This document shows positions 53,784-61,355 of a DNA stretch of 64,000 bases, piece by piece (position 1 is the first letter of the stretch; each line of letters starts with the position of its first letter). This DNA is from a virus (lineage: Duplodnaviria; Heunggongvirae; Uroviricota; Caudoviricetes), in IMG/VR virus record IMGVR_UViG_3300042154_003418, positions 40,218 through 104,217 of that record. One strand, given 5' to 3'. A program made the position numbers and the translations under genes. The notes under the pieces were generated by a model. That model saw only the letters and a program-made list of their open reading frames with translations. It was not told the DNA's origin and did not search any database.

Positions 53784-54377
53784 TTATTCTTTTGTTTCTG
53801 CGGCTTCTTGTGCACGAGCTGCCTGCAACTTTTCCAGTCGCTGCGCAACTTCGTCGCTAGTCATCCAAATGTCTTTGTTGTGCAACATGCTGGAAATTTC
53901 TTCACTGGTCAAGAAGTCTTTGTATACCGCACTCATAAAGTTTTCCGACCAACGACGTTCAAAGTGCAGTTGATCGTACATTTCACCGCCTTTGCCAAAT
54001 GTTCCAGCACTATAGTTGTGAAACATAAAAAGACTGTGCGGTGTGATCTCGTGTGCATGACCGTGTAAGAAGATCATGGTTGCTGCACTCATGCAAGCGC
54101 CTTCAACACTGGTAACAATAGTTGCTTCTGTGTCGGACATTACTCGCAAGAATTGTAGTGTGGTATACAGGTCACCACCAGGCGAGTTGATATAAATACG
54201 AACGGTATCTACTTCGGATGCATTGCGAATGCAATCAAACCACTCAATGTATTCTTCAGCATCTAGCACAGGGCCGCTTAGGTAAAACTCATGAAGCTGT
54301 GCAACTGGCTTTGAAAAGCTATTTGTGTACTTTTCAGGTTGAAACAATTTAGGGTCGAGATAATTGTCTTTGTTCAT
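53784..54377 (-). CDS. ClpP-family serine peptidase
   Basis: INSPGGDLYT, the GACMSAA Ser region and MFHNY His region align with the ClpP catalytic triad layout. Confidence 0.6.
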   Translation of the reverse strand: MNKDNYLDPKLFQPEKYTNSFSKPVAQLHEFYLSGPVLDAEEYIEWFDCIRNASEVDTVRIYINSPGGDLYTTLQFLRVMSDTEATIVTSVEGACMSAATMIFLHGHAHEITPHSLFMFHNYSAGTFGKGGEMYDQLHFERRWSENFMSAVYKDFLTSEEISSMLHNKDIWMTSDEVAQRLEKLQAARAQEAAETKE

Positions 54378-54471: not shown

Positions 54472-54852
54472 TGCCAGCTTATTCTGTTACGAGGGAAGCC
54501 GAGCGAGAAACCCTAAGCAGTTTTTAAGCTGCTAGTGCGTACGTTTGATCGTTTGCGTTTATTTTTGTTTTGTGTCTGCGGCCAGGTAGAGCGTCTTTTT
54601 GTGCTATATGCACAACGACTACACTTTGCCCCCAACCCTACGGCTTCTACATTGCCGAGTTGTCTACTTTGCTACTCTTAGCCCGGTCGATCCTGTGTCA
54701 GGCCCATCAAAAGCATACTACTAGCATATAAGCTAAAAGAGCCGATCCTTCCAACCGCTGTCGGCCACCCTTTGGGTAGGGTAATATACTTATGGTGGAC
54801 CTGGCGGGCACTGCCCCCGCGTGTCGAACTCTTTTGGGTCTGCTTCATACAA

Positions 54853-54940
54853 CCATATTTTAGCACACTAACGGACATGCGTCGTAACCACTTTCTAAGC
54901 CTGTGCACAGGCAGCGGGCTTCTAGTATGCTAAAATATGG
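54853..54940. repeat. 13-bp perfect inverted repeat enclosing 62 nt, abutting the 3' end of the 54938 tRNA
   Basis: ccatattttagca ... tgctaaaatatgg. Confidence 0.6.
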
Positions 54941-55891: not shown

Positions 55892-56485
55892 TCATTTTAC
55901 TAAAGGCCTATTGTCTAGTTCTACGGCAATATCTAAAAATATCTTATCACTATTTATTCTGTGAATGTACGCATGGTGTGTAGGACATAAATATACTAAG
56001 TTAGATAGGTCATTATTATACCTATTCTCATCTATATGATGTACGTCTAGTATTAGGTTTTCTTCACATGAACAGCATTTAATTTTAAGATCGTTGTCTT
56101 TATAAAATCTATTTAAATACTCTACGTAGCTATAGCTTCCGTCTTTCCTGTTTTTTGCCCCTTGAGTATGAGCAAAAAACTTATTACCACAGTTATAAGA
56201 GCATGTAGTCGGCTCTTTACCAGAAGATAAAAACTCAAATTCATTGTTACACTGTGGGCAAACTTTACTAATTAATTTAGCAGGCTCTTTGCCGTTAGCT
56301 GTAAAGTGAGAAGTACTAATATTGTGTAAAAGACAATAGTCTTTTATCATCTTACCGTACCTGTAGTTTTTGGAATAACCTAATGCTTGTGCAACTATTA
56401 CGGCAGCGTGAGCGTTAGATATTAGTTCTAGTAGTTCTCCAGATTTATGGCTATCTTCTAAAACTTTTAAAAATGTTGTTGACAT
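55892..56485 (-). CDS. HNH homing endonuclease
   Basis: C-terminal NLVYLCPTHHAYIHR HNH motif and Cys-rich zinc-binding segments. Low-GC codon usage. Confidence 0.75.
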   Translation of the reverse strand: MSTTFLKVLEDSHKSGELLELISNAHAAVIVAQALGYSKNYRYGKMIKDYCLLHNISTSHFTANGKEPAKLISKVCPQCNNEFEFLSSGKEPTTCSYNCGNKFFAHTQGAKNRKDGSYSYVEYLNRFYKDNDLKIKCCSCEENLILDVHHIDENRYNNDLSNLVYLCPTHHAYIHRINSDKIFLDIAVELDNRPLVK

Positions 56486-56644: not shown

Positions 56645-56719
56645 TGGCTCCACAGGCAGGGATCGAACCTACGACCAATTGATTAACAGTCAACTGCACT
56701 ACCGCTGTGCTACTGTGGA
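56645..56719 (-). tRNA. tRNA-Asn (anticodon GTT)
   Basis: Acceptor tccacag / ctgtgga. Loop CTGTTAA. T-loop TTCGATC. Confidence 0.8.
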
Positions 56720-57167: not shown

Positions 57168-57218
57168 GTTTAAAGAATAATTATACCGCAAATAGCAAAT
57201 CACGGCAAATCTAAATTT

Positions 57219-57293
57219 TGGCACCCCTCCAGGGACTCGAACCCTGACCAACGGTTTTGGAGACCGCGATGCTGCCAATTACACCAAAGAGAT
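57219..57293 (-). tRNA. tRNA-Trp (anticodon CCA)
   Basis: Anticodon stem gcggt/accgt, loop CTCCAAA. T-arm caggg-TTCGAGT-ccctg. The acceptor is G-U-rich, which is unusual. Confidence 0.6.
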
Positions 57294-57299
57294 AAAATG

Positions 57300-57660
57300 C
57301 TTGGAATTATGCGTTACAGAGTTTTGTCGGGCTTTCACACCCGGTGCCATACCACTTGGCGAATTTCCCAATGGGAGATAAAAGAATCGAACTTTTGATG
57401 AAACTGTAACTATCGCCAAAGCAATAATAATAAAAAACCTTAGAACAACTATTGCAGCGATTTGGTTAGATTAGAAGTCTAGAAGTAACTGCAAAAAACA
57501 CTAAAGGCTTAGAATAAGACTAGAAAAAGCAACGCGGGTATTTGTTTTTCAAACCATATTGAGAAGTAACCGCATCTAGCACTAAGTCCTATTCTAAGCC
57601 TTCGCTTAGAGCCCCACCTTTCTTACACCTGACTGGCTACAGGCTTGGGTCGTGGGTTAG
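57300..57660 (-). ncRNA. non-coding region 3' of the rsr-like gene: a T-arm/acceptor remnant (57366-57390), a 5' half-tRNA-like segment (57300-57365), and a long imperfect hairpin (57504-57602). This is the 3'-side candidate Y-RNA-like transcript.
   Basis: aaaagttcgattcttttatctccca (T-arm + 3' acceptor) is followed by gggaaattcgccaagtggtatggcacc. The aaggcttagaataagactag ... ctagcactaagtcctattctaagcctt helix is about 20 bp. No ORF longer than 60 aa. Confidence 0.35.
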
Positions 57661-57665
57661 TATTA

Positions 57666-59042
57666 TTAAAGCACTTCTGCTTCGAGGGCTTGAATGTAAT
57701 CAATCACAGCTTCGGAGAAACCAGTAATGGTTTCCCACTCAGCACTGTTGATGCCATTCTGATAAGAACCAACGTTCAGGATGTAGTTTTTGTCACGGGA
57801 CAAACGCTTGGCTTTGTGAGGTTCGAAACCTCGGCCACCTGTGTCTTGTTCATCTGTAAACACGATTACTCGGTCTACAAAATTATCATGTTCTTGGCTG
57901 GCGATATAGTCCATAGCTTGCACTAAGAAGATACCGCCACCGCCGATTTTTCGGCCGACCTCTGCACTGCGGATGTAGTCGCTGAGTGCAAAACCACGTC
58001 GATTTGGAATCAACATAGTTGCATGTTTGCGAGTACCATCATTACCGGCTGTTGCGTAGATAACTACTTCTTCGCAGATTTCTCGTGCCAAGATAGCCAG
58101 TGAACAAGCAGCATCAAGACGAGAAATCTCGCTTTTAGCGCTTATTGTTTGCCCCATAGAGCCGCTAGTGTCAACCACCAAAACTGTACGTCCTGGTAGT
58201 TTAGCTTGTGTTGACAAGCTTGCTAGCATCATGCGCTCAAGCATACCCTCAAATTGAGGGACTTGACGGGCCGCAGAAATGTACCGGAAAGGCAACACTT
58301 TTGAAGCGTCAATGGTTTTTGAGTAAGCCTCAATCTCGGACTGAGAAATACCTGCTTGAGTCATGTTACGCAAGTTACGTAAGAATGCTAGTGCACCCAA
58401 TTTGTTTTCACGCATAAGACGTGAGAATGTTTCACGCTTATCAGCGCCCGCACTTAGTTGAGTTTCCCAGGTATCTGGAGTTTCCAACTTGTCTTCAGCA
58501 ATTCGTTTGAATAGCTCGGCTTGCACAGCCGTTTGCGGTTTAGGGTGGCTCAGGAACATAACATCACGCAAGCGAATCGCTGCTGAGTTTTTGTCCCACT
58601 TGGCCAGCTGATACTCGCTGAACTTGTTAAAACAAGCAGCAAGACCACGTTTAACCTGATTGCTCAGGGCTGACTTGCCGTCTTTCCAGTAAATGCTCAG
58701 GAATTCAGACATTTCGTCTGGACGCTGAATAACACTGGTAAGGGCATTTGCTTGTAGTTTACCGTGACGTGCGAGTTCACGAACAAGCAGCAGAGGAACG
58801 TGACGAAGTTTGAACTTAGTACGAGCCTCTAGTGCTAGTGCGGCAACCCGATCAGGGTTCACACTAGCTACCACGCTTTTAATCAGTTCAGCATGGCTTT
58901 TTCCATCAACATAAAACTGGTCTTCCCACAGCATTGCTGCCAGGGTCAAGCGACGCAGTTGTCGTTCTGGATTAATAGTGCGTACTGGAGTACCAACACT
59001 GTTAACAGTCATTGAAGCGGATTTGCGATTAATCGCGGACAT
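57666..59042 (-). CDS. rsr: Ro60/Rsr-like protein (TROVE-like N-terminal region + C-terminal von Willebrand A domain)
   Basis: C-terminal vWA MIDAS motif VLVVDTSGSMG with downstream T and D residues. N-terminal LRRLTLAAMLWEDQFYVDGKS parallels the Ro60 RFLCFGSEGGTYY region. About 460 aa. Embedded among tRNA and tRNA-like genes. Confidence 0.6.
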   Translation of the reverse strand: MSAINRKSASMTVNSVGTPVRTINPERQLRRLTLAAMLWEDQFYVDGKSHAELIKSVVASVNPDRVAALALEARTKFKLRHVPLLLVRELARHGKLQANALTSVIQRPDEMSEFLSIYWKDGKSALSNQVKRGLAACFNKFSEYQLAKWDKNSAAIRLRDVMFLSHPKPQTAVQAELFKRIAEDKLETPDTWETQLSAGADKRETFSRLMRENKLGALAFLRNLRNMTQAGISQSEIEAYSKTIDASKVLPFRYISAARQVPQFEGMLERMMLASLSTQAKLPGRTVLVVDTSGSMGQTISAKSEISRLDAACSLAILAREICEEVVIYATAGNDGTRKHATMLIPNRRGFALSDYIRSAEVGRKIGGGGIFLVQAMDYIASQEHDNFVDRVIVFTDEQDTGGRGFEPHKAKRLSRDKNYILNVGSYQNGINSAEWETITGFSEAVIDYIQALEAEVL

Positions 59043-59073
59043 GGATTTTTCCTTGTAAATAAGTAAGAACTAG

Positions 59074-59120
59074 GCGAAACAGAGATTTTAGCGCTCTACC
59101 AACTGAGCTACTCGACACAC
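59074..59120 (-). ncRNA. tRNA 5'-half fragment (acceptor + intact D-arm) lacking anticodon and T arms
   Basis: The - strand reads gtgtgtcgag-ta-gctcagttggtagagcg, then diverges. Confidence 0.4.
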
Positions 59121-59125
59121 TAAAG

Positions 59126-59213
59126 TGCCAGAGGATGGACTCGAACCACCGACCTCTCGTTTAACAGACGAAGTAACTGTTTCTTTCACTATACCTAAAT
59201 TAAACACACTGGC
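59126..59213 (-). ncRNA. 88-nt tRNA-like RNA: acceptor + T-arm + GTT anticodon-like arm, with a 14-nt expansion in the D region. This is the 5'-side candidate Y-RNA-like (YrlA-type) element.
   Basis: Acceptor gccagtg / ctctggc (1 mismatch). T-arm ggtgg-TTCGAGT-ccatc. Arm ttcgt-CTGTTAA-acgag. Its 5' part is duplicated at 59330-59375. Confidence 0.4.
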
Positions 59214-59429
59214 TAAGAATCTGCGAAAGCAGTTCTTGGAATTGTTTAGCGTCTACATCGCCTAAGACGTTTGCACGGTTTAAAGTGTGTGGCTACCACA
59301 ATTTGTGTGCCACAAGGGCAGACAGCTTTAGTTATGAAGTAACTGACTTCTATCACTATAGCCAAAGTGTTTAATTTAAGTATAAATTATATCAAATATA
59401 ACTTACACTGGCAAGTTTGTATTTTTAGT

Positions 59430-59503
59430 GGTGGACATAGCAGGATTCGAACCGGCGACCTAGGCCGTATGAAGACCGTGCACTACCACTGTGCTATATG
59501 TCC
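59430..59503 (-). tRNA. tRNA-Met/Ile2 (anticodon CAT), second CAT tRNA
   Basis: Acceptor ggacata / tatgtcc. D-arm gcac..gtgc. Loop TTCATAC. T-loop TTCGAAT. CCA encoded. Confidence 0.7.
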
Positions 59504-59889
59504 AGGTGCCGGTTACATTCTCCGGCGGCACATTTCGTTGTGTCTGAAGACATTGACGCTGTTTAAAGTCCACGAGGGGGCATAGTCTGTAGCCATTAGG
59601 TAAACAGATACCTTTACTTGTGTGTTATTTTTGTGTCAGGAAACATCAAACCCCGTGAGAGCAGCCCATCTTGTTTTCGCTTCAGCGGACGCAGGGTGGT
59701 CAATATACTTACCACTGATTACAAGCCTGCAAATGACAATGTAGCGTGGTGCTTATATCCACACATAGACGGGATACACCGGCGAGTTTCCTCAGATAAG
59801 CAATCGTATCTATTGTCAAAAATATGGTGGCGAGCCAATGCCAGGTTTACCAGCTCACTATGCGGCTGCAGAAGTGCTGGAGGGCTAAT

Positions 59890-59960
59890 TTGGTTGCGGG
59901 GGAAGGACTCGAACCTTCTAAGCGGAGCTTATGAGACTTGCTTCTACCCTGACTCCCCGC
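59890..59960 (-). ncRNA. 71-nt degenerate tRNA-like gene: good acceptor, T-arm, CCA and a CUCAUAA loop, but no proper anticodon stem and a shortened D-arm
   Basis: T-arm gaagg-TTCGAGT-ccttc. Acceptor cgcgggg / cccgcaa. The loop ctcataa is flanked by non-pairing caagt/gctcc. Confidence 0.4.
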
Positions 59961-60111
59961 GATATTTTAGTAGTAGCCGTGGAATTCGTTTTTGTAACGA
60001 AACCAGGTACGCTCTAGCTCTTTTAACTGTGACCAAGTTTGTGGATTGTTGTCGGTGACAAAATCTTCAAAGCTATAAGGTTGCAGAGCTTTTTGTAGCT
60101 GAGCCAGTAAA

Positions 60112-60592: not shown

Positions 60593-60773
60593 GTTTGCGT
60601 AAAGATTAATTATACAGAGATTAGGCTGCGTGTTCAAGACAATATTTATAAGTTTAACCCTAACCACGGGCGAGTATGAGTCGAGACGTGGGCCTATAGC
60701 AACTACTAGGTGGATTAGTCCGTTCGTAAAGGATTGGTAATCACTCCAACTTAGGGTCAAACTTATAAATACT

Positions 60774-60849
60774 TGGTGCAACCTACAGGAATCGAACCTG
60801 TTTCCATCGCTCTTCAGGCGACCGCTATGACCACATCAGCTAAAGTTGC
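60774..60849 (-). tRNA. tRNA-Phe (anticodon GAA)
   Basis: Acceptor gcaactt / aggttgc. Anticodon stem gtcgc/gcgat, loop CTGAAGA. T-loop TTCGATT. CCA encoded. Confidence 0.75.
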
Positions 60850-61074: not shown

Positions 61075-61150
61075 TGGGCAGTCGTTACGGATTCGATCCG
61101 TTCCTACGAGTTTCACAGACTCGGGTGCTTCCACTACACTAAACGCTGCA
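61075..61150 (-). tRNA. tRNA-His (anticodon GTG), acceptor with a one-nucleotide bulge
   Basis: Anticodon stem cgagt/actcg, loop CTGTGAA. T region acggATCGAATccgt. 3' strand acgActgc pairs with gcagcgt. Confidence 0.65.
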
Positions 61151-61241: not shown

Positions 61242-61355
61242 AGTACCATATTTGAGCATACTAACATCCACTTTTCGAACTTGTACTTTGTTCGCGAATA
61301 CGTGTAGTCTTGCAAAACCAGTGGTTGAACGCCAACTGTTAATATGCTCAAATAT

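What the first reader, a model, noticed from the sequence alone, without database searches (positions are those of the whole stretch)
59074..59375. tRNA-derived fragments and partial duplications upstream of the rsr-like gene
A clean tRNA 5' half with a perfect D-arm (gctcagttggtagagc) runs into unrelated sequence. An adjacent 88-nt element has a good acceptor, a T-arm and a GTT anticodon-like arm, but carries 14 extra nt between the acceptor and the anticodon arm. Its 5' portion (agtaactg..ttcactata..ttaaacac) is repeated about 160 nt away at 59330-59375. This looks like tRNA gene decay or remodelling into tRNA-like ncRNAs rather than functional decoders.
Basis: seen in the sequence. Interest (0 to 1): 0.55.

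Follow-up and report, generated by a model that had tools for sequence, protein, structure and literature searches.

The report
Phage Y RNAs beside Ro60 gene
The apparent "tRNA fragments" are two halves of one conserved tRNA-mimicking Y RNA, plus a sister RNA with the same stem, encoded by a T5-like phage just upstream of its Ro60 (Rsr) gene; this RNA-protein pairing is already known, and here it appears in a new phage lineage.

Summary
The "tRNA 5' half" (D arm) and the T arm plus "GTT anticodon arm" are one 132-nt RNA (M2, 59194-59063), ending 20 nt before the rsr start codon. Its order is a two-helix closing stem, UUAC, a V hairpin, the T arm, a closed acceptor-like hairpin and the D arm. 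That is the YrlA-type bacterial Y RNA architecture (Chen 2014).

A covariance model built from eight relatives, without the window, scores M2 at 105.8 bits. Across 31 members, including Caulobacter phage CcrColossus and Xylella phage Usme, 95% of cells pair and 30 of 33 pairs show compensatory changes.

The "repeat" at 59330-59375 is the 5' strand of the same stem in a paralogous RNA (M1), which starts just after a near-consensus promoter. Three more units follow rsr.

Rfam's YrlA model scores M2 at only 27 bits (threshold 69), and it also misses the CcrColossus copies.

Verdict: a new member of a known kind, of modest interest. Rsr binding and expression are inferred, not shown.

The parts
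59386..59414 (-). Sigma-70-type promoter with extended -10: TTGCCA, 17-nt spacer, TGnTATAAT. It lies just upstream of M1.
   Evidence: 11 of 12 consensus matches with TG before the -10 box. TATAAT is invariant in 12 related loci, at a fixed distance from the start of the M1 stem. Use as a promoter is inferred.
59190..59384 (-). M1, the upstream Y-like RNA. It has a long closing stem and the same stem design as M2. Its roughly 100-nt interior is not tRNA-like.
   Evidence: Inverted repeat 59384-59359 with 59215-59190: 26 nt, 88% complementary. The MFE fold shows this stem. In the alignment of joined stem segments from 12 loci, 90.3% of cells pair against 27-50% when partners are slid, and 9 pairs show changes on both sides.
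59350..59363 (-). M1 5' strand of the conserved bulged helix: GGCTA, bulged T (59358), then AGTGATAG.
   Evidence: Read directly from the sequence. It is homologous to 59181-59194 of M2 (repeat D3, 84%).
59336..59342 (-). M1 TTACTTC motif, corresponding to the YUAY element of YrlA.
   Evidence: Motif scan. The motif is enriched on the rsr strand next to rsr in most loci.
59233..59335 (-). M1 interior domain of unknown type.
   Evidence: 94-96% identical in L003, L005 and L006, and partly conserved in L001 and L014. No Rfam match.
59063..59194 (-). M2, the YrlA-type Y RNA.
   Evidence: Model R1 scores it 105.8 bits, E 2e-33, full length; the window was not in the training set. Rfam YrlA scores 27.2 bits, E 7.5e-4 locally. 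The single-sequence fold reproduces the helices.
59189..59194 (-). M2 P1 5' strand, GTA[T]AG, with bulged T at 59191. It pairs with CTTAC at 59067-59063.
   Evidence: P1 is 99-100% paired, with 4-5 of 5 pairs showing changes on both sides. The bulged T is invariant in A2 and A4.
59177..59183 (-). M2 P2 5' strand, GAAACAG. It pairs with CTGTTTC at 59082-59076.
   Evidence: There are 10 distinct 5' strands among 20 sequences, each matched by its own 3' strand at 6-7 of 7 positions. 7 of 7 pairs show changes on both sides.
59156..59176 (-). TTACTTC motif plus the V hairpin: stem TTCGT/ACGAG and 7-nt loop CTGTTAA.
   Evidence: The helix is 82-86% paired. The same CUGUUAA loop occurs in CcrColossus and Xylella phage Usme.
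59134..59155 (-). AGGTC (variable-loop equivalent) followed by the T arm GGTGG-TTCGAGT-CCATC.
   Evidence: The T stem is 97-99% paired, with covariation.
59111..59133 (-). AS, the acceptor-like stem closed by a loop: CTCTGGCAC-TTTA-GTGTGTCGAG.
   Evidence: It folds as a hairpin in all 20 relatives despite unrelated sequences. 6-7 of 7 pairs show changes on both sides.
59093..59110 (-). TA plus the D arm GCTC-AGTTGGTA-GAGC.
59063..59092 (-). Linker GCTAAAATCT, P2 3' strand CTGTTTC, conserved 3' loop GCCTAGTT, and P1 3' strand CTTAC.
57666..59042 (-). rsr, the Ro60 ortholog, 458 aa.
   Evidence: Pfam TROVE E 1.9e-13 with a weak vWA match. The only solved relatives are the Thermus phage phiLo Ro60 structures 9KOP and 9L5Y, E 3e-19. 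98 phage records carry homologs.
57504..57602 (-). M3, a short Y-like RNA downstream of rsr (core 57590-57516, with an extended 18-bp stem).
   Evidence: Stem-only model R2 scores it 42.1 bits, E 5e-10; it was not in the training set. Inverted repeat I2 is 94% complementary.
57436..57509 (-). M4, a short Y-like RNA: the stem plus a hairpin with a CTTCTAA loop.
   Evidence: R2 scores it 47.6 bits, E 1e-11. M3 and M4 are the only two significant R2 hits in the 64-kb window.
57300..57421 (-). M5, a probable divergent tRNA-like Y RNA: P1 with a bulged T, P2, a T-arm-like hairpin and three further hairpins.
   Evidence: R1 scores it 29.9 bits, E 5e-7, over the full model. Homologs lie at the same position after rsr in L003, L005, L007, L009 and L016. 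This is the weakest of the five.

Best explanation
The region encodes non-coding Y RNAs, the RNA partners of the phage's Ro60/Rsr protein.

Layout:
- A sigma-70-type promoter at 59414-59386 (minus strand) probably drives one transcript that carries M1, M2 and rsr. No minus-strand terminator is predicted in 57200-59700, so it may continue into M3, M4, M5 and the following tRNAs.
- Each RNA is closed by the same two-helix stem. P1 has an invariant bulged U. Then comes an internal loop with a conserved 5' strand RGYGWAG and a conserved 3' strand CG(C/U)UUGUU. Then comes the 7-bp helix P2, followed by UUAC.
- This stem is the likely Rsr docking site. Its 5' strand corresponds to the GNCGAAN0-1G motif of known YrlA RNAs and the GGUCCGA of animal Y RNAs.

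M2:
- M2 carries a tRNA mimic: a V hairpin, a 5-nt variable loop, a T arm, a loop-closed acceptor stem and a D arm.
- All the usual tRNA core contacts are possible from the sequence (U8-A14, G15-C48, G18/G19 with U55/C56, G26-A44).
- By analogy with characterised YrlA and phiLo Yrl RNAs, the stem would bind the outer face of the Rsr ring. The tRNA-like or other distal module would then stabilise the RNA, or tether Rsr to a partner such as host PNPase or a tRNA-binding enzyme. The result would be to adapt RNA surveillance or decay during infection.

M1, M3 and M4 would be alternative adaptors with different distal modules.

Shown here: the gene anatomy, conservation, covariation, linkage to rsr and its strand, and the family link to CcrColossus.

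Inferred, not shown: transcription, processing into discrete RNAs, Rsr binding and the downstream effect.
For: 1. Position. M2 ends 20 nt upstream of the start codon of a TROVE/vWA protein, on the same strand. That protein's only solved relatives are the phage phiLo Ro60 structures.

2. Architecture. The Rfam YrlA model aligns the T arm, closed hairpin and D arm of M2 over its full length (27.2 bits, E 7.5e-4 locally). Chen 2014 (PMC4201824) defines YrlA by T, AS and D stem-loops, an optional V, a 5' GNCGAAN0-1G motif, a YUAY before V, and a location within 4 kb of Ro60 on the same strand. M2 has each of these in recognisable form.

3. Conservation. Many of the 38 related viral loci carry the T-then-D order next to rsr.

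4. Covariation on an unfitted MAFFT alignment of 8 loci, window excluded: 93.9% of cells paired against 40-48% when slid; 21 of 33 pairs changed on both sides; 0 of 500 shuffles reach these values.

5. Blind test. Model R1, built from those 8 loci, scores the window's M2 at 105.8 bits. Tandem tRNA pairs in the same window reach at most 34 bits and match only part of the model.

6. Wider set. With 31 members, 95.2% of cells pair and 30 of 33 pairs are compensatory.

7. Link to published cases. R1 gives at least 5 hits upstream of the Rsr of CcrColossus (up to 91.8 bits) and 3 full-length hits in Xylella phage Usme (up to 106.6 bits). CcrColossus is named as a phage with Y RNA-like ncRNAs in PMC12135203, citing Chen 2014.

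8. Shared stem. Model R2, built from 15 short units (P1 97.5% paired with 8 of 8 pairs compensatory; P2 88% paired), finds only M3 and M4 in the 64-kb window. It finds 71 hits in 36 related loci plus the window, all on the rsr strand.

9. M1 has the same 5' strand (repeat D3) and a long covarying closing stem. It follows a near-consensus promoter that is conserved in relatives.

10. Precedent. Two Y-like RNAs upstream of a phage Ro60 bind that protein and host PNPase in Thermus phage phiLo (PMC12135203).
Against: - M2 scores far below Rfam's YrlA gathering score (27.2 against 69). The model's central helix is not aligned. None of 16 related loci reach the threshold either.
- The window's version of the Ro-contact motif is degenerate: AGUGAAAG in M2 and AGUGAUAG in M1, against GNCGAAN0-1G.
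- M2's folding energy is no better than shuffled sequence (z = -0.13, 87 of 200 shuffles fold as well). All structural support is comparative.
- The 31-sequence alignment is fitted to the model, which favours the structure.
- The M1 stem sequences are closely related, so their covariation signal is modest: 14 of 500 shuffles reach the observed number of pairs with double changes.
- There are no expression, processing or binding data. With no terminator between M2 and rsr, M2 could act in cis as part of the rsr leader.
- Some relatives lack the tRNA-like unit altogether (L003, L005, L008) or keep only its stem (L012, L014). It is therefore dispensable in some lineages.
Confidence: 0.85

Rival explanations
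1. One reading: these are decaying or rearranged tRNA genes. One would be the 3' two-thirds of a tRNA-Asn-like gene, abutting the 5' third of another tRNA. They would have no function of their own.
For: - The pieces look exactly like tRNA parts, including an anticodon-type loop CUGUUAA and a 5-nt variable loop AGGUC.
- The best match among the phage's own tRNAs is tRNA-Asn.
- The region sits in a dense tRNA array.
- Chen 2014 warns that tandem tRNAs mimic YrlA.
Against: - No tRNA is called here.
- The helices that are not part of any tRNA (P1, P2 and the loop-closed acceptor hairpin) are conserved and covary across phages with 40-90% Rsr identity.
- Real tandem tRNAs match only positions 22-97 of the model, at 34 bits or less, against 105.8 bits over the full length for M2.
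- Similarity to the resident tRNA-Asn is only generic: a local score of 19 out of a possible 46.
- The unit keeps a fixed relation to rsr, not to the tRNA genes.
Confidence: 0.03
2. M2, and possibly M1, act in cis as a structured leader of the rsr mRNA. They would serve as an autoregulatory Rsr-binding site, or as a tRNA-like processing or stability signal that releases or protects the rsr message from the polycistronic tRNA transcript. They would not be stable trans-acting Y RNAs.
For: - M2 ends 20 nt before the rsr ATG. The ribosome-binding site follows the P1 3' strand directly.
- No minus-strand terminator is predicted in 57200-59700.
- In M. smegmatis, the Y RNAs are processed from a precursor upstream of rsr.
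Against: - Full-length homologs lie downstream of rsr in L018, L019, L020, L022 and L027. CcrColossus and Usme carry them in tandem arrays of three or more. That does not fit a leader role.
- Short units with the same stem also lie after rsr in the window.
- L003, L005 and L008 keep rsr and its ribosome-binding region but lack M2.
- The two roles are not mutually exclusive.
Confidence: 0.1
3. M2 is a circularly permuted tRNA gene. After processing and ligation it would yield a functional decoder, such as tRNA-Asn.
For: - All four tRNA arms are present in permuted order, and the tertiary-contact nucleotides are correct.
- M. smegmatis YrlA is cleaved by RNase P and receives CCA.
Against: - The "anticodon" varies freely among orthologs: GTT, TCT, GCT, TTT, TAT and others.
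- In many members the acceptor stem is closed by a 4-nt loop, with no discriminator base or CCA.
- A 7-bp helix plus the Ro-type stem interrupts the junction between positions 26 and 27. No bacterial pathway is known that would excise it.
- The phage already has a canonical tRNA-Asn at 56645-56719.
Confidence: 0.02

Closest known systems
YrlA (Rfam RF02553; Chen et al. 2014, PMC4201824), the tRNA-mimicking bacterial and phage Y RNA bound by Rsr
   Same: - Encoded next to rsr on the same strand.
- The 5' and 3' ends pair into a long stem.
- A purine-rich 5' motif related to GNCGAAN0-1G.
- A YUAY element (here UUAC) before a V hairpin.
- The same order of T arm, loop-closed acceptor-like stem (AS) and near-invariant D arm GCUCAGUUGGUAGAGC.
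- tRNA tertiary-contact nucleotides are retained.
- CcrColossus, a phage already reported to carry YrlA-like RNAs, has copies that match my model of this clade at up to 91.8 bits.
   Different: - It scores 27 bits against a gathering score of 69.
- The Rfam consensus has a short inner helix between the D arm and the strand before the variable loop. This clade lacks it. The V hairpin sits directly in the junction instead, and looks like an anticodon arm (5 bp plus a 7-nt CUNNUAA loop) followed by a 5-nt variable loop.
- Both strands of the putative Ro-binding helix are conserved: 5' RGYGWAG and 3' CG(C/U)UUGUUCY, with an invariant bulged U. Chen et al. state that only the 5' strand is recognisable in the Salmonella and M. 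smegmatis RNAs.
Yrl1 and Yrl2 of Thermus phage phiLo (PMC12135203)
   Same: - Phage-encoded, with more than one Y-like RNA directly upstream of the phage Ro60 gene.
- Stem, internal loop, stem design with a CGAA-type motif.
- The phiLo Ro60 is the closest solved relative of the window's Rsr.
- It supplies the mechanistic precedent: binding to the phage Ro60 and to host PNPase.
   Different: - In the passages I read, the phiLo RNAs are described as stem-bulge-stem Y RNAs. I found no mention of a tRNA-like domain, though I did not read the whole paper.
- No sequence similarity to them was tested here.
- The window has five units on both sides of rsr, inside a tRNA array.
YrlB (S. Typhimurium, M. 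smegmatis) and D. radiodurans Yrn2 and other secondary Y RNAs
   Same: Additional Rsr-linked RNAs encoded beside YrlA. They share the Ro-contact motif but lack a full tRNA-like domain. This is the best analogy for M1, M3 and M4.
   Different: - No sequence homology was established.
- Many of the phage short units carry an anticodon-loop-like hairpin (CUNNUAA): 36 of 77 distinct units have a 7-nt loop with this consensus. I did not find this described for YrlB.
Tandem tRNA genes and tRNA pseudogenes
   Same: A T arm plus acceptor 3' strand, followed by an acceptor 5' strand plus D arm, is what a tRNA-tRNA junction looks like. Such junctions give partial hits to the model.
   Different: - In this family the two acceptor strands form one short loop-closed hairpin that covaries.
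- The whole unit is enclosed by two covarying helices that are absent from tRNA pairs.

Membership tests
YrlA-type Y RNA (Chen et al. 2014; Rfam RF02553) | Encoded within 4 kb of a Ro60/TROVE gene, on the same strand | tested here: met
   M2 ends 20 nt upstream of rsr on the same strand. The protein has a TROVE domain, and its only solved relatives are the phage Ro60 structures 9KOP and 9L5Y.
YrlA-type Y RNA (Chen et al. 2014; Rfam RF02553) | Near-invariant T and D stem-loops, with T placed 5' of D | tested here: met
   T arm at 59150-59134 and D arm at 59108-59093. Both are aligned by the Rfam model. Both helices are 97-100% paired in relatives.
YrlA-type Y RNA (Chen et al. 2014; Rfam RF02553) | AS: a stem-loop between T and D that is not conserved in sequence and stands in for the acceptor stem | tested here: met
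   Located at 59133-59111. It forms a hairpin in all 20 sequences. 6-7 of 7 pairs show changes on both sides.
YrlA-type Y RNA (Chen et al. 2014; Rfam RF02553) | The 5' and 3' ends pair into a long stem | tested here: met
   P1 and P2 are 97-100% paired, and 11 of 12 (A2) to 12 of 12 (A6) of their pairs are compensatory. The actual RNA ends are unknown.
YrlA-type Y RNA (Chen et al. 2014; Rfam RF02553) | GNCGAAN0-1G motif near the 5' end (presumed Ro contact) | tested here: inconclusive
   The window has AGUGAAAG (M2) and AGUGAUAG (M1), which differ from the motif by two transitions. Relatives have GGCGAAUG (an exact match, L025 1721), GGCGUAG and GGUGAAG. The first two positions covary with the 3' strand (AG/CU against GG/CC). 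This is a recognisable but degenerate form.
YrlA-type Y RNA (Chen et al. 2014; Rfam RF02553) | Conserved YUAY at the start of the V region, with an optional V stem-loop | tested here: met
   UUAC of the TTACTTC motif at 59176-59170, followed by the V hairpin at 59172-59156. The motif is almost invariant across the family.
YrlA-type Y RNA (Chen et al. 2014; Rfam RF02553) | Reaches the Rfam RF02553 gathering score (69 bits) | tested here: not met
   The window scores 27.2 bits. There were no YrlA hits at threshold in 16 related loci. The CcrColossus and Usme copies also score only 30-50 bits, so this threshold excludes phage copies matched by R1 in CcrColossus, a phage already reported to carry such RNAs. 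I treat it as a sensitivity limit of the model, not as evidence against membership.
YrlA-type Y RNA (Chen et al. 2014; Rfam RF02553) | Binds Rsr, and carries tRNA-type modifications (pseudouridine 55 by TruB, dihydrouridine by DusA) | not testable with these tools
   This needs EMSA or RIP and modification mapping. The target nucleotides (U55 at 59144; U16, U17 and U20 in the D loop) are present.
Functional tRNA gene | Called by tRNA finders, with 7-bp acceptor pairing between the 5' and 3' ends | tested here: not met
ARAGORN finds nothing in 59044-59428. Rfam tRNA scores 23.5 bits against 29.
tRNA pseudogene or decaying tRNA fragments | No selective constraint beyond residual tRNA similarity, and no conserved non-tRNA structure | tested here: not met
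   Non-tRNA helices are conserved and covary. The window's unit matches a model built from distant phages at 105.8 bits.

The most novel reading that the evidence does not exclude
The phage Rsr and its set of five Y-like RNAs, embedded in the tRNA array, could form a counter-defence module aimed at host tRNA-targeting immunity. About half of the units across this family display an anticodon-stem-loop look-alike (C32-U33-N-N-U36-A37-A38) on a Ro-binding stem, including the 70-nt mini versions. These could serve as baits, decoys or sensors for anticodon nucleases or anticodon-loop-modifying enzymes. Alternatively, they could direct Rsr/PNPase to cleaved tRNA. The CUGUUAA loop is shared by the window, CcrColossus and Xylella phage Usme. 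It also contains the U33-G34-U35 element which, from my own knowledge and not tested here, is what tRNA-guanine transglycosylase recognises.
Probability: 0.08. Interest if true: 0.7.

Novelty: new member of a known kind. Interest (0 to 1): 0.3.

Why it matters
- It replaces "tRNA debris" in a phage tRNA block with five intact, conserved RNA genes and their likely promoter. It also shows how a YrlA-type RNA can be misread as two tRNA fragments.
- Rfam's YrlA model, at its curated threshold, misses this whole phage clade and also the CcrColossus copies. Such RNAs are therefore likely to be under-annotated in phage genomes. The two models built here would recover them.
- The locus extends Ro60/Y RNA modules to uncultivated T5-like phages that carry large tRNA sets and a tmRNA. 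That raises a testable idea: these phages may bring their own RNA surveillance adaptors into the infected cell.
- None of this changes what is known about the kind of system involved.

Tried and rejected
- Megablast of 58000-60000 against the phage collection gave no match.
- An exact 26-nt pattern from M2 scanned against viral contigs gave no match. Relatives had to be reached through the Rsr protein.
- RNAalifold on the plain MAFFT alignment recovered only the T and D arms, because the variable hairpin and outer stems were out of register. This was solved with a subset in register (A2) and covariance-model realignment.
- The ungapped 7-on-7 test of the closed hairpin is crude. It scores low where the stem has an internal loop, and one locus was mis-parsed. 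The hairpin folds and the pair counts are the valid tests.
- The stem-only model R2 cannot span the large interiors of M1 and M2. M1 was therefore tested by joining its 5' and 3' stem segments.
- One search was a malformed input.
- Thermodynamic support was sought and not found for M2 (z = -0.13) or M5 (z = -0.98).
- Supplementary tables of Chen 2014, which list the 22 phages, are not held. The statement that CcrColossus was reported rests on PMC12135203.
- Rfam at E up to 10 gave nothing meaningful for M1 or for the units downstream of rsr, and no metazoan Y_RNA hit.
- None of the 10 ORFs scanned against Pfam matched an RNA repair family such as RtcB or an RNA ligase. Only a sample of the window's ORFs was scanned.
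- A permuted functional tRNA and plain tandem tRNAs were considered and rejected (see the rival explanations).
- From memory, human Y1 and Y3 contain CAGUUAC and UUGUUC(C/U), and animal Y RNAs have a 3' strand CUUGAC(C/U). These resemble the phage motifs CAGUUAC and CGCUUGUUCC. This was not tested and may be chance.
Full report
**Setting**

The finding lies in a minus-strand block of at least 22 tRNA genes and a permuted tmRNA. The window carries a family A DNA polymerase, an NAD-dependent ligase, a DnaB-type helicase, SbcC, RNR and ClpP. The polymerase is closest, at about 50% identity, to T5-like Vibrio phages. No close DNA relative is present in the annotated phage collection.

Directly downstream of the finding, on the minus strand, is a 458-aa ORF (59042-57666). 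It has a TROVE domain and a weak vWA match. Its only solved relatives are the Ro60 structures of Thermus phage phiLo, 9KOP and 9L5Y (E 3e-19). This is an rsr (Ro60) gene. Homologs occur in 98 phage records.

**The observation**

- TA plus the D arm GCTCAGTTGGTAGAGC at 59110-59093.
- The T arm at 59150-59134.
- A 5-bp stem with loop CTGTTAA at 59172-59156.
- A 6-of-7 pairing of GCCAGTG (59213-59207) with CTCTGGC (59133-59127).
- A repeat of the 5' portion about 165 nt upstream: 59181-59199 matches 59348-59366 at 84%, and the 10-mer CAGTTACTTC occurs twice.

ARAGORN calls no tRNA here. Rfam tRNA reaches only 23.5 bits against a threshold of 29.

**What it is: M2**

Rfam gives a full-length but sub-threshold match to YrlA, the bacterial Y RNA, at 59183-59073 (27.2 bits, gathering score 69). 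That model's layout is an outer stem, T arm, a loop-closed hairpin, D arm, then the stem's return strand.

Chen et al. 2014 (PMC4201824) define YrlA by these features:
- T, AS and D stem-loops, with an optional V stem-loop upstream of T.
- A 5' GNCGAAN0-1G motif thought to contact Ro60.
- A conserved YUAY at the start of V.
- A position within 4 kb of Ro60, on the same strand.

They also warn that tandem tRNAs can imitate the pattern. The test is therefore whether the non-tRNA helices are real.

**Comparative evidence**

The Rsr protein retrieved 38 viral loci with 25-90% identity. Many carry a T loop followed about 33 nt later by the D arm, next to rsr.

The common anatomy is, in order:
- P1, 5 bp with an invariant bulged T.
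- An internal loop with 5' strand YGWAG and 3' strand CG(C/U)YTWGTT.
- P2, 7 bp.
- TTACTTC.
- The V hairpin.
- AGGTC.
- The T arm.
- The AS hairpin.
- TA plus the D arm.
- An A-rich linker.
- The P2 and P1 return strands.

The tests gave these results:
- Among 20 sequences there are 10 different P2 5' strands. Each is matched by its own 3' strand at 6-7 of 7 positions. The AS segment folds into a hairpin in all 20 despite unrelated sequences.
- On a plain MAFFT alignment of 8 loci, without the window, my structure is 93.9% paired, against 40-48% when partners are slid. 21 of 33 pairs change on both sides, and 0 of 500 shuffles reach this.
- The covariance model R1 built from those 8 loci scores the window's unit at 105.8 bits (E about 2e-33) over 59194-59063. 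Real tandem tRNA junctions in the window match only part of the model, at 34 bits or less.
- With 31 full-length members, 95.2% of cells pair and 30 of 33 pairs are compensatory. That alignment is model-fitted.
- The tRNA-like halves resemble the phage's own tRNAs only generically.
- M2's single-sequence fold reproduces the helices, but its energy is no better than shuffles (z = -0.13). The case for the structure rests on covariation alone.

**Link to published Y RNAs**

None of the window or 16 related loci reach Rfam's YrlA threshold. R1, however, finds at least 5 units upstream of the Rsr of Caulobacter phage CcrColossus (91.8, 72.7, 66.3, 48.5 and 41.1 bits). It also finds 3 full-length units in Xylella phage Usme (106.6, 82.1 and 69.3 bits).

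CcrColossus is named among the phages with Y RNA-like ncRNAs in PMC12135203, citing Chen 2014. Rfam scores those copies at only 30-50 bits. The window's RNA therefore belongs to the published phage YrlA group, and the Rfam threshold is simply too strict for it.

The feature mapping is as follows:
- UUAC corresponds to YUAY.
- RGYGWAG corresponds to GNCGAAN0-1G. The match is exact as GGCGAAUG in L025. In the window it is degenerate: AGUGAAAG in M2 and AGUGAUAG in M1.

Read directly from the sequence, M2 keeps the nucleotides for the standard tRNA core contacts: U8-A14, G15-C48, G18/G19 with U55/C56, U54-A58 and G26-A44. This rests on established tRNA knowledge.

**The "repeat": M1 and the other units**

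The repeated segment is the 5' strand of the same stem in a second RNA, M1. Its parts are:
- P1: GGCTA[T]AG with CTTAGCC.
- P2: GAAGTCAG with CTGCTTTC.
- TTACTTC at 59342-59336.
- An interior of about 100 nt that is not tRNA-like.

M1's P1 extends into a 26-nt, 88% complementary stem (59384-59359 with 59215-59190). In joined stem segments from 12 loci, this stem is 90.3% paired against 27-50% when slid. It shows compensatory changes such as CG to GC and CG to AU. These sequences are close relatives, so the signal is modest.

Just upstream lies a near-consensus extended -10 promoter: TTGCCA, 17-nt spacer, TGnTATAAT, at 59414-59386, with 11 of 12 matches. Its TATAAT is invariant in 12 relatives. 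No minus-strand terminator is predicted in 57200-59700.

A stem-only model, R2, was built from 15 short units of relatives. In that alignment P1 is 97.5% paired with 8 of 8 pairs compensatory, and P2 is 88% paired. R2 finds exactly two significant hits in the whole window. Both lie just after rsr: M4 (57509-57436, 47.6 bits) and M3 (57590-57516, 42.1 bits). It finds 71 hits in 36 related loci plus the window, all on the rsr strand.

A fifth, weaker unit, M5 (57421-57300), matches R1 at 29.9 bits. It has positional homologs in five loci.

**Mechanism**

The best-supported reading is a promoter-driven operon encoding rsr and a set of Y RNAs. Each RNA docks on Rsr through the conserved bulged stem. 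Each presents a different distal module: a full tRNA mimic in M2, an unknown domain in M1, and short hairpins in M3 and M4.

By analogy, the RNAs would gate or tether Rsr to partners such as host PNPase. The analogies are D. radiodurans and Salmonella and the phiLo phage Ro60-Yrl-PNPase complex. Transcription, processing, binding and effect are all inferred.

A cis-acting leader role for M2 is possible. It fits poorly with copies that lie downstream of rsr or in tandem arrays.

**A detail worth recording**

In 36 of 77 distinct units, the hairpin after UUAC has a 7-nt loop with the anticodon-loop signature C-U-N-N-U-A-A. This includes the mini units. CUGUUAA recurs in the window, L004, L029, CcrColossus and Usme.

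Combined with the 5-nt AGGUC before the T arm, M2 reads as a complete cloverleaf. The acceptor is closed by a loop, and the Y stem is inserted between positions 26 and 27. This may only reflect descent from tRNA. A decoy or sensor role against tRNA-targeting defence is not excluded, but nothing here supports it directly.

**Verdict**

It is wrong on decay and on the parsing into two elements.

This is a new member, and a divergent clade, of a known kind of system. Interest is modest, at 0.3. The practical value is for annotation, because Rfam's threshold misses these RNAs.

Noticed in passing
window 59890-59968 (minus strand): An unannotated tRNA-like element. It has a good T arm (GAAGG-TTCGAGT-CCTTC), a 6-bp acceptor (GCGGGG/CCCCGC) and an ...AACCA end, but no recognisable D or anticodon arm. 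Neither ARAGORN nor Rfam (E up to 10) calls it. It is 92-96% identical in 12 related loci whose Rsr is only about 63% identical, so it is probably functional.
   Followed up: partly
window 60636-60776 (minus strand): A 141-nt RNA-like element between tRNA-Phe and tRNA-Glu, with a closing stem of about 28 bp. Its folding z-score is -4.96 and it is 80-96% identical in 8 related loci. It has no Rfam family.
   Followed up: partly
window 61242-61354 (minus strand): A 113-nt element between tRNA-Lys and tRNA-Ser, with a closing stem of about 18 bp and an internal GTTCGAA hairpin. Its z-score is -3.54, and it is conserved in 3 loci.
   Followed up: partly
window 59504-59889 (minus strand): A 386-nt stretch with no minus-strand ORF. 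It is 87% identical over 380 nt in L007, much more conserved than the neighbouring Rsr. It has no Rfam hit and no thermodynamic signal (z = +0.66). It remains unexplained.
   Followed up: partly
window 54524-54854 (minus strand) and 53784-54377: A phage-encoded permuted (two-piece) tmRNA (RF04321, 91.3 bits) close to a ClpP-like protease ORF. Relatives L001, L007, L009 and L013 also carry permuted tmRNAs. Two of them also match the betaproteobacterial tmRNA model, which hints at the host range.
   Followed up: no
window 61079-61147 (minus strand): An Rfam tRNA hit (37 bits, above threshold) that ARAGORN does not call. The tRNA count of the block is therefore at least 23.
   Followed up: no
L020 1093-1368: A bacterial RNase P class A RNA (126.8 bits, threshold 100; only 276 nt long against a 367-position model), on a viral contig, within its tRNA array.
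   Followed up: no
L039 (Caulobacter phage CcrColossus NC_019406.1) 1673-1740: The record annotates a tRNA-Gln at a position where the Y RNA model R1 gives a full-length 72.7-bit hit (1672-1830). The record annotates no Y RNAs, although at least 5 model hits lie upstream of its Rsr.
   Followed up: no
window 59190-59194 and 57504-57509: Neighbouring units overlap by about 5-6 nt. The 3' arm of M1's long stem overlaps the P1 5' strand of M2, and M3's extended stem overlaps the start of M4. Adjacent RNAs therefore cannot both be fully folded in one precursor. This may bear on processing order.
   Followed up: no
window 55892-56485 (minus strand): A 197-aa ORF with a weak HNH endonuclease match (21.9 bits, below the Pfam cut-off of 24.8), sitting inside the tRNA block. 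It is possibly a homing endonuclease.
   Followed up: no
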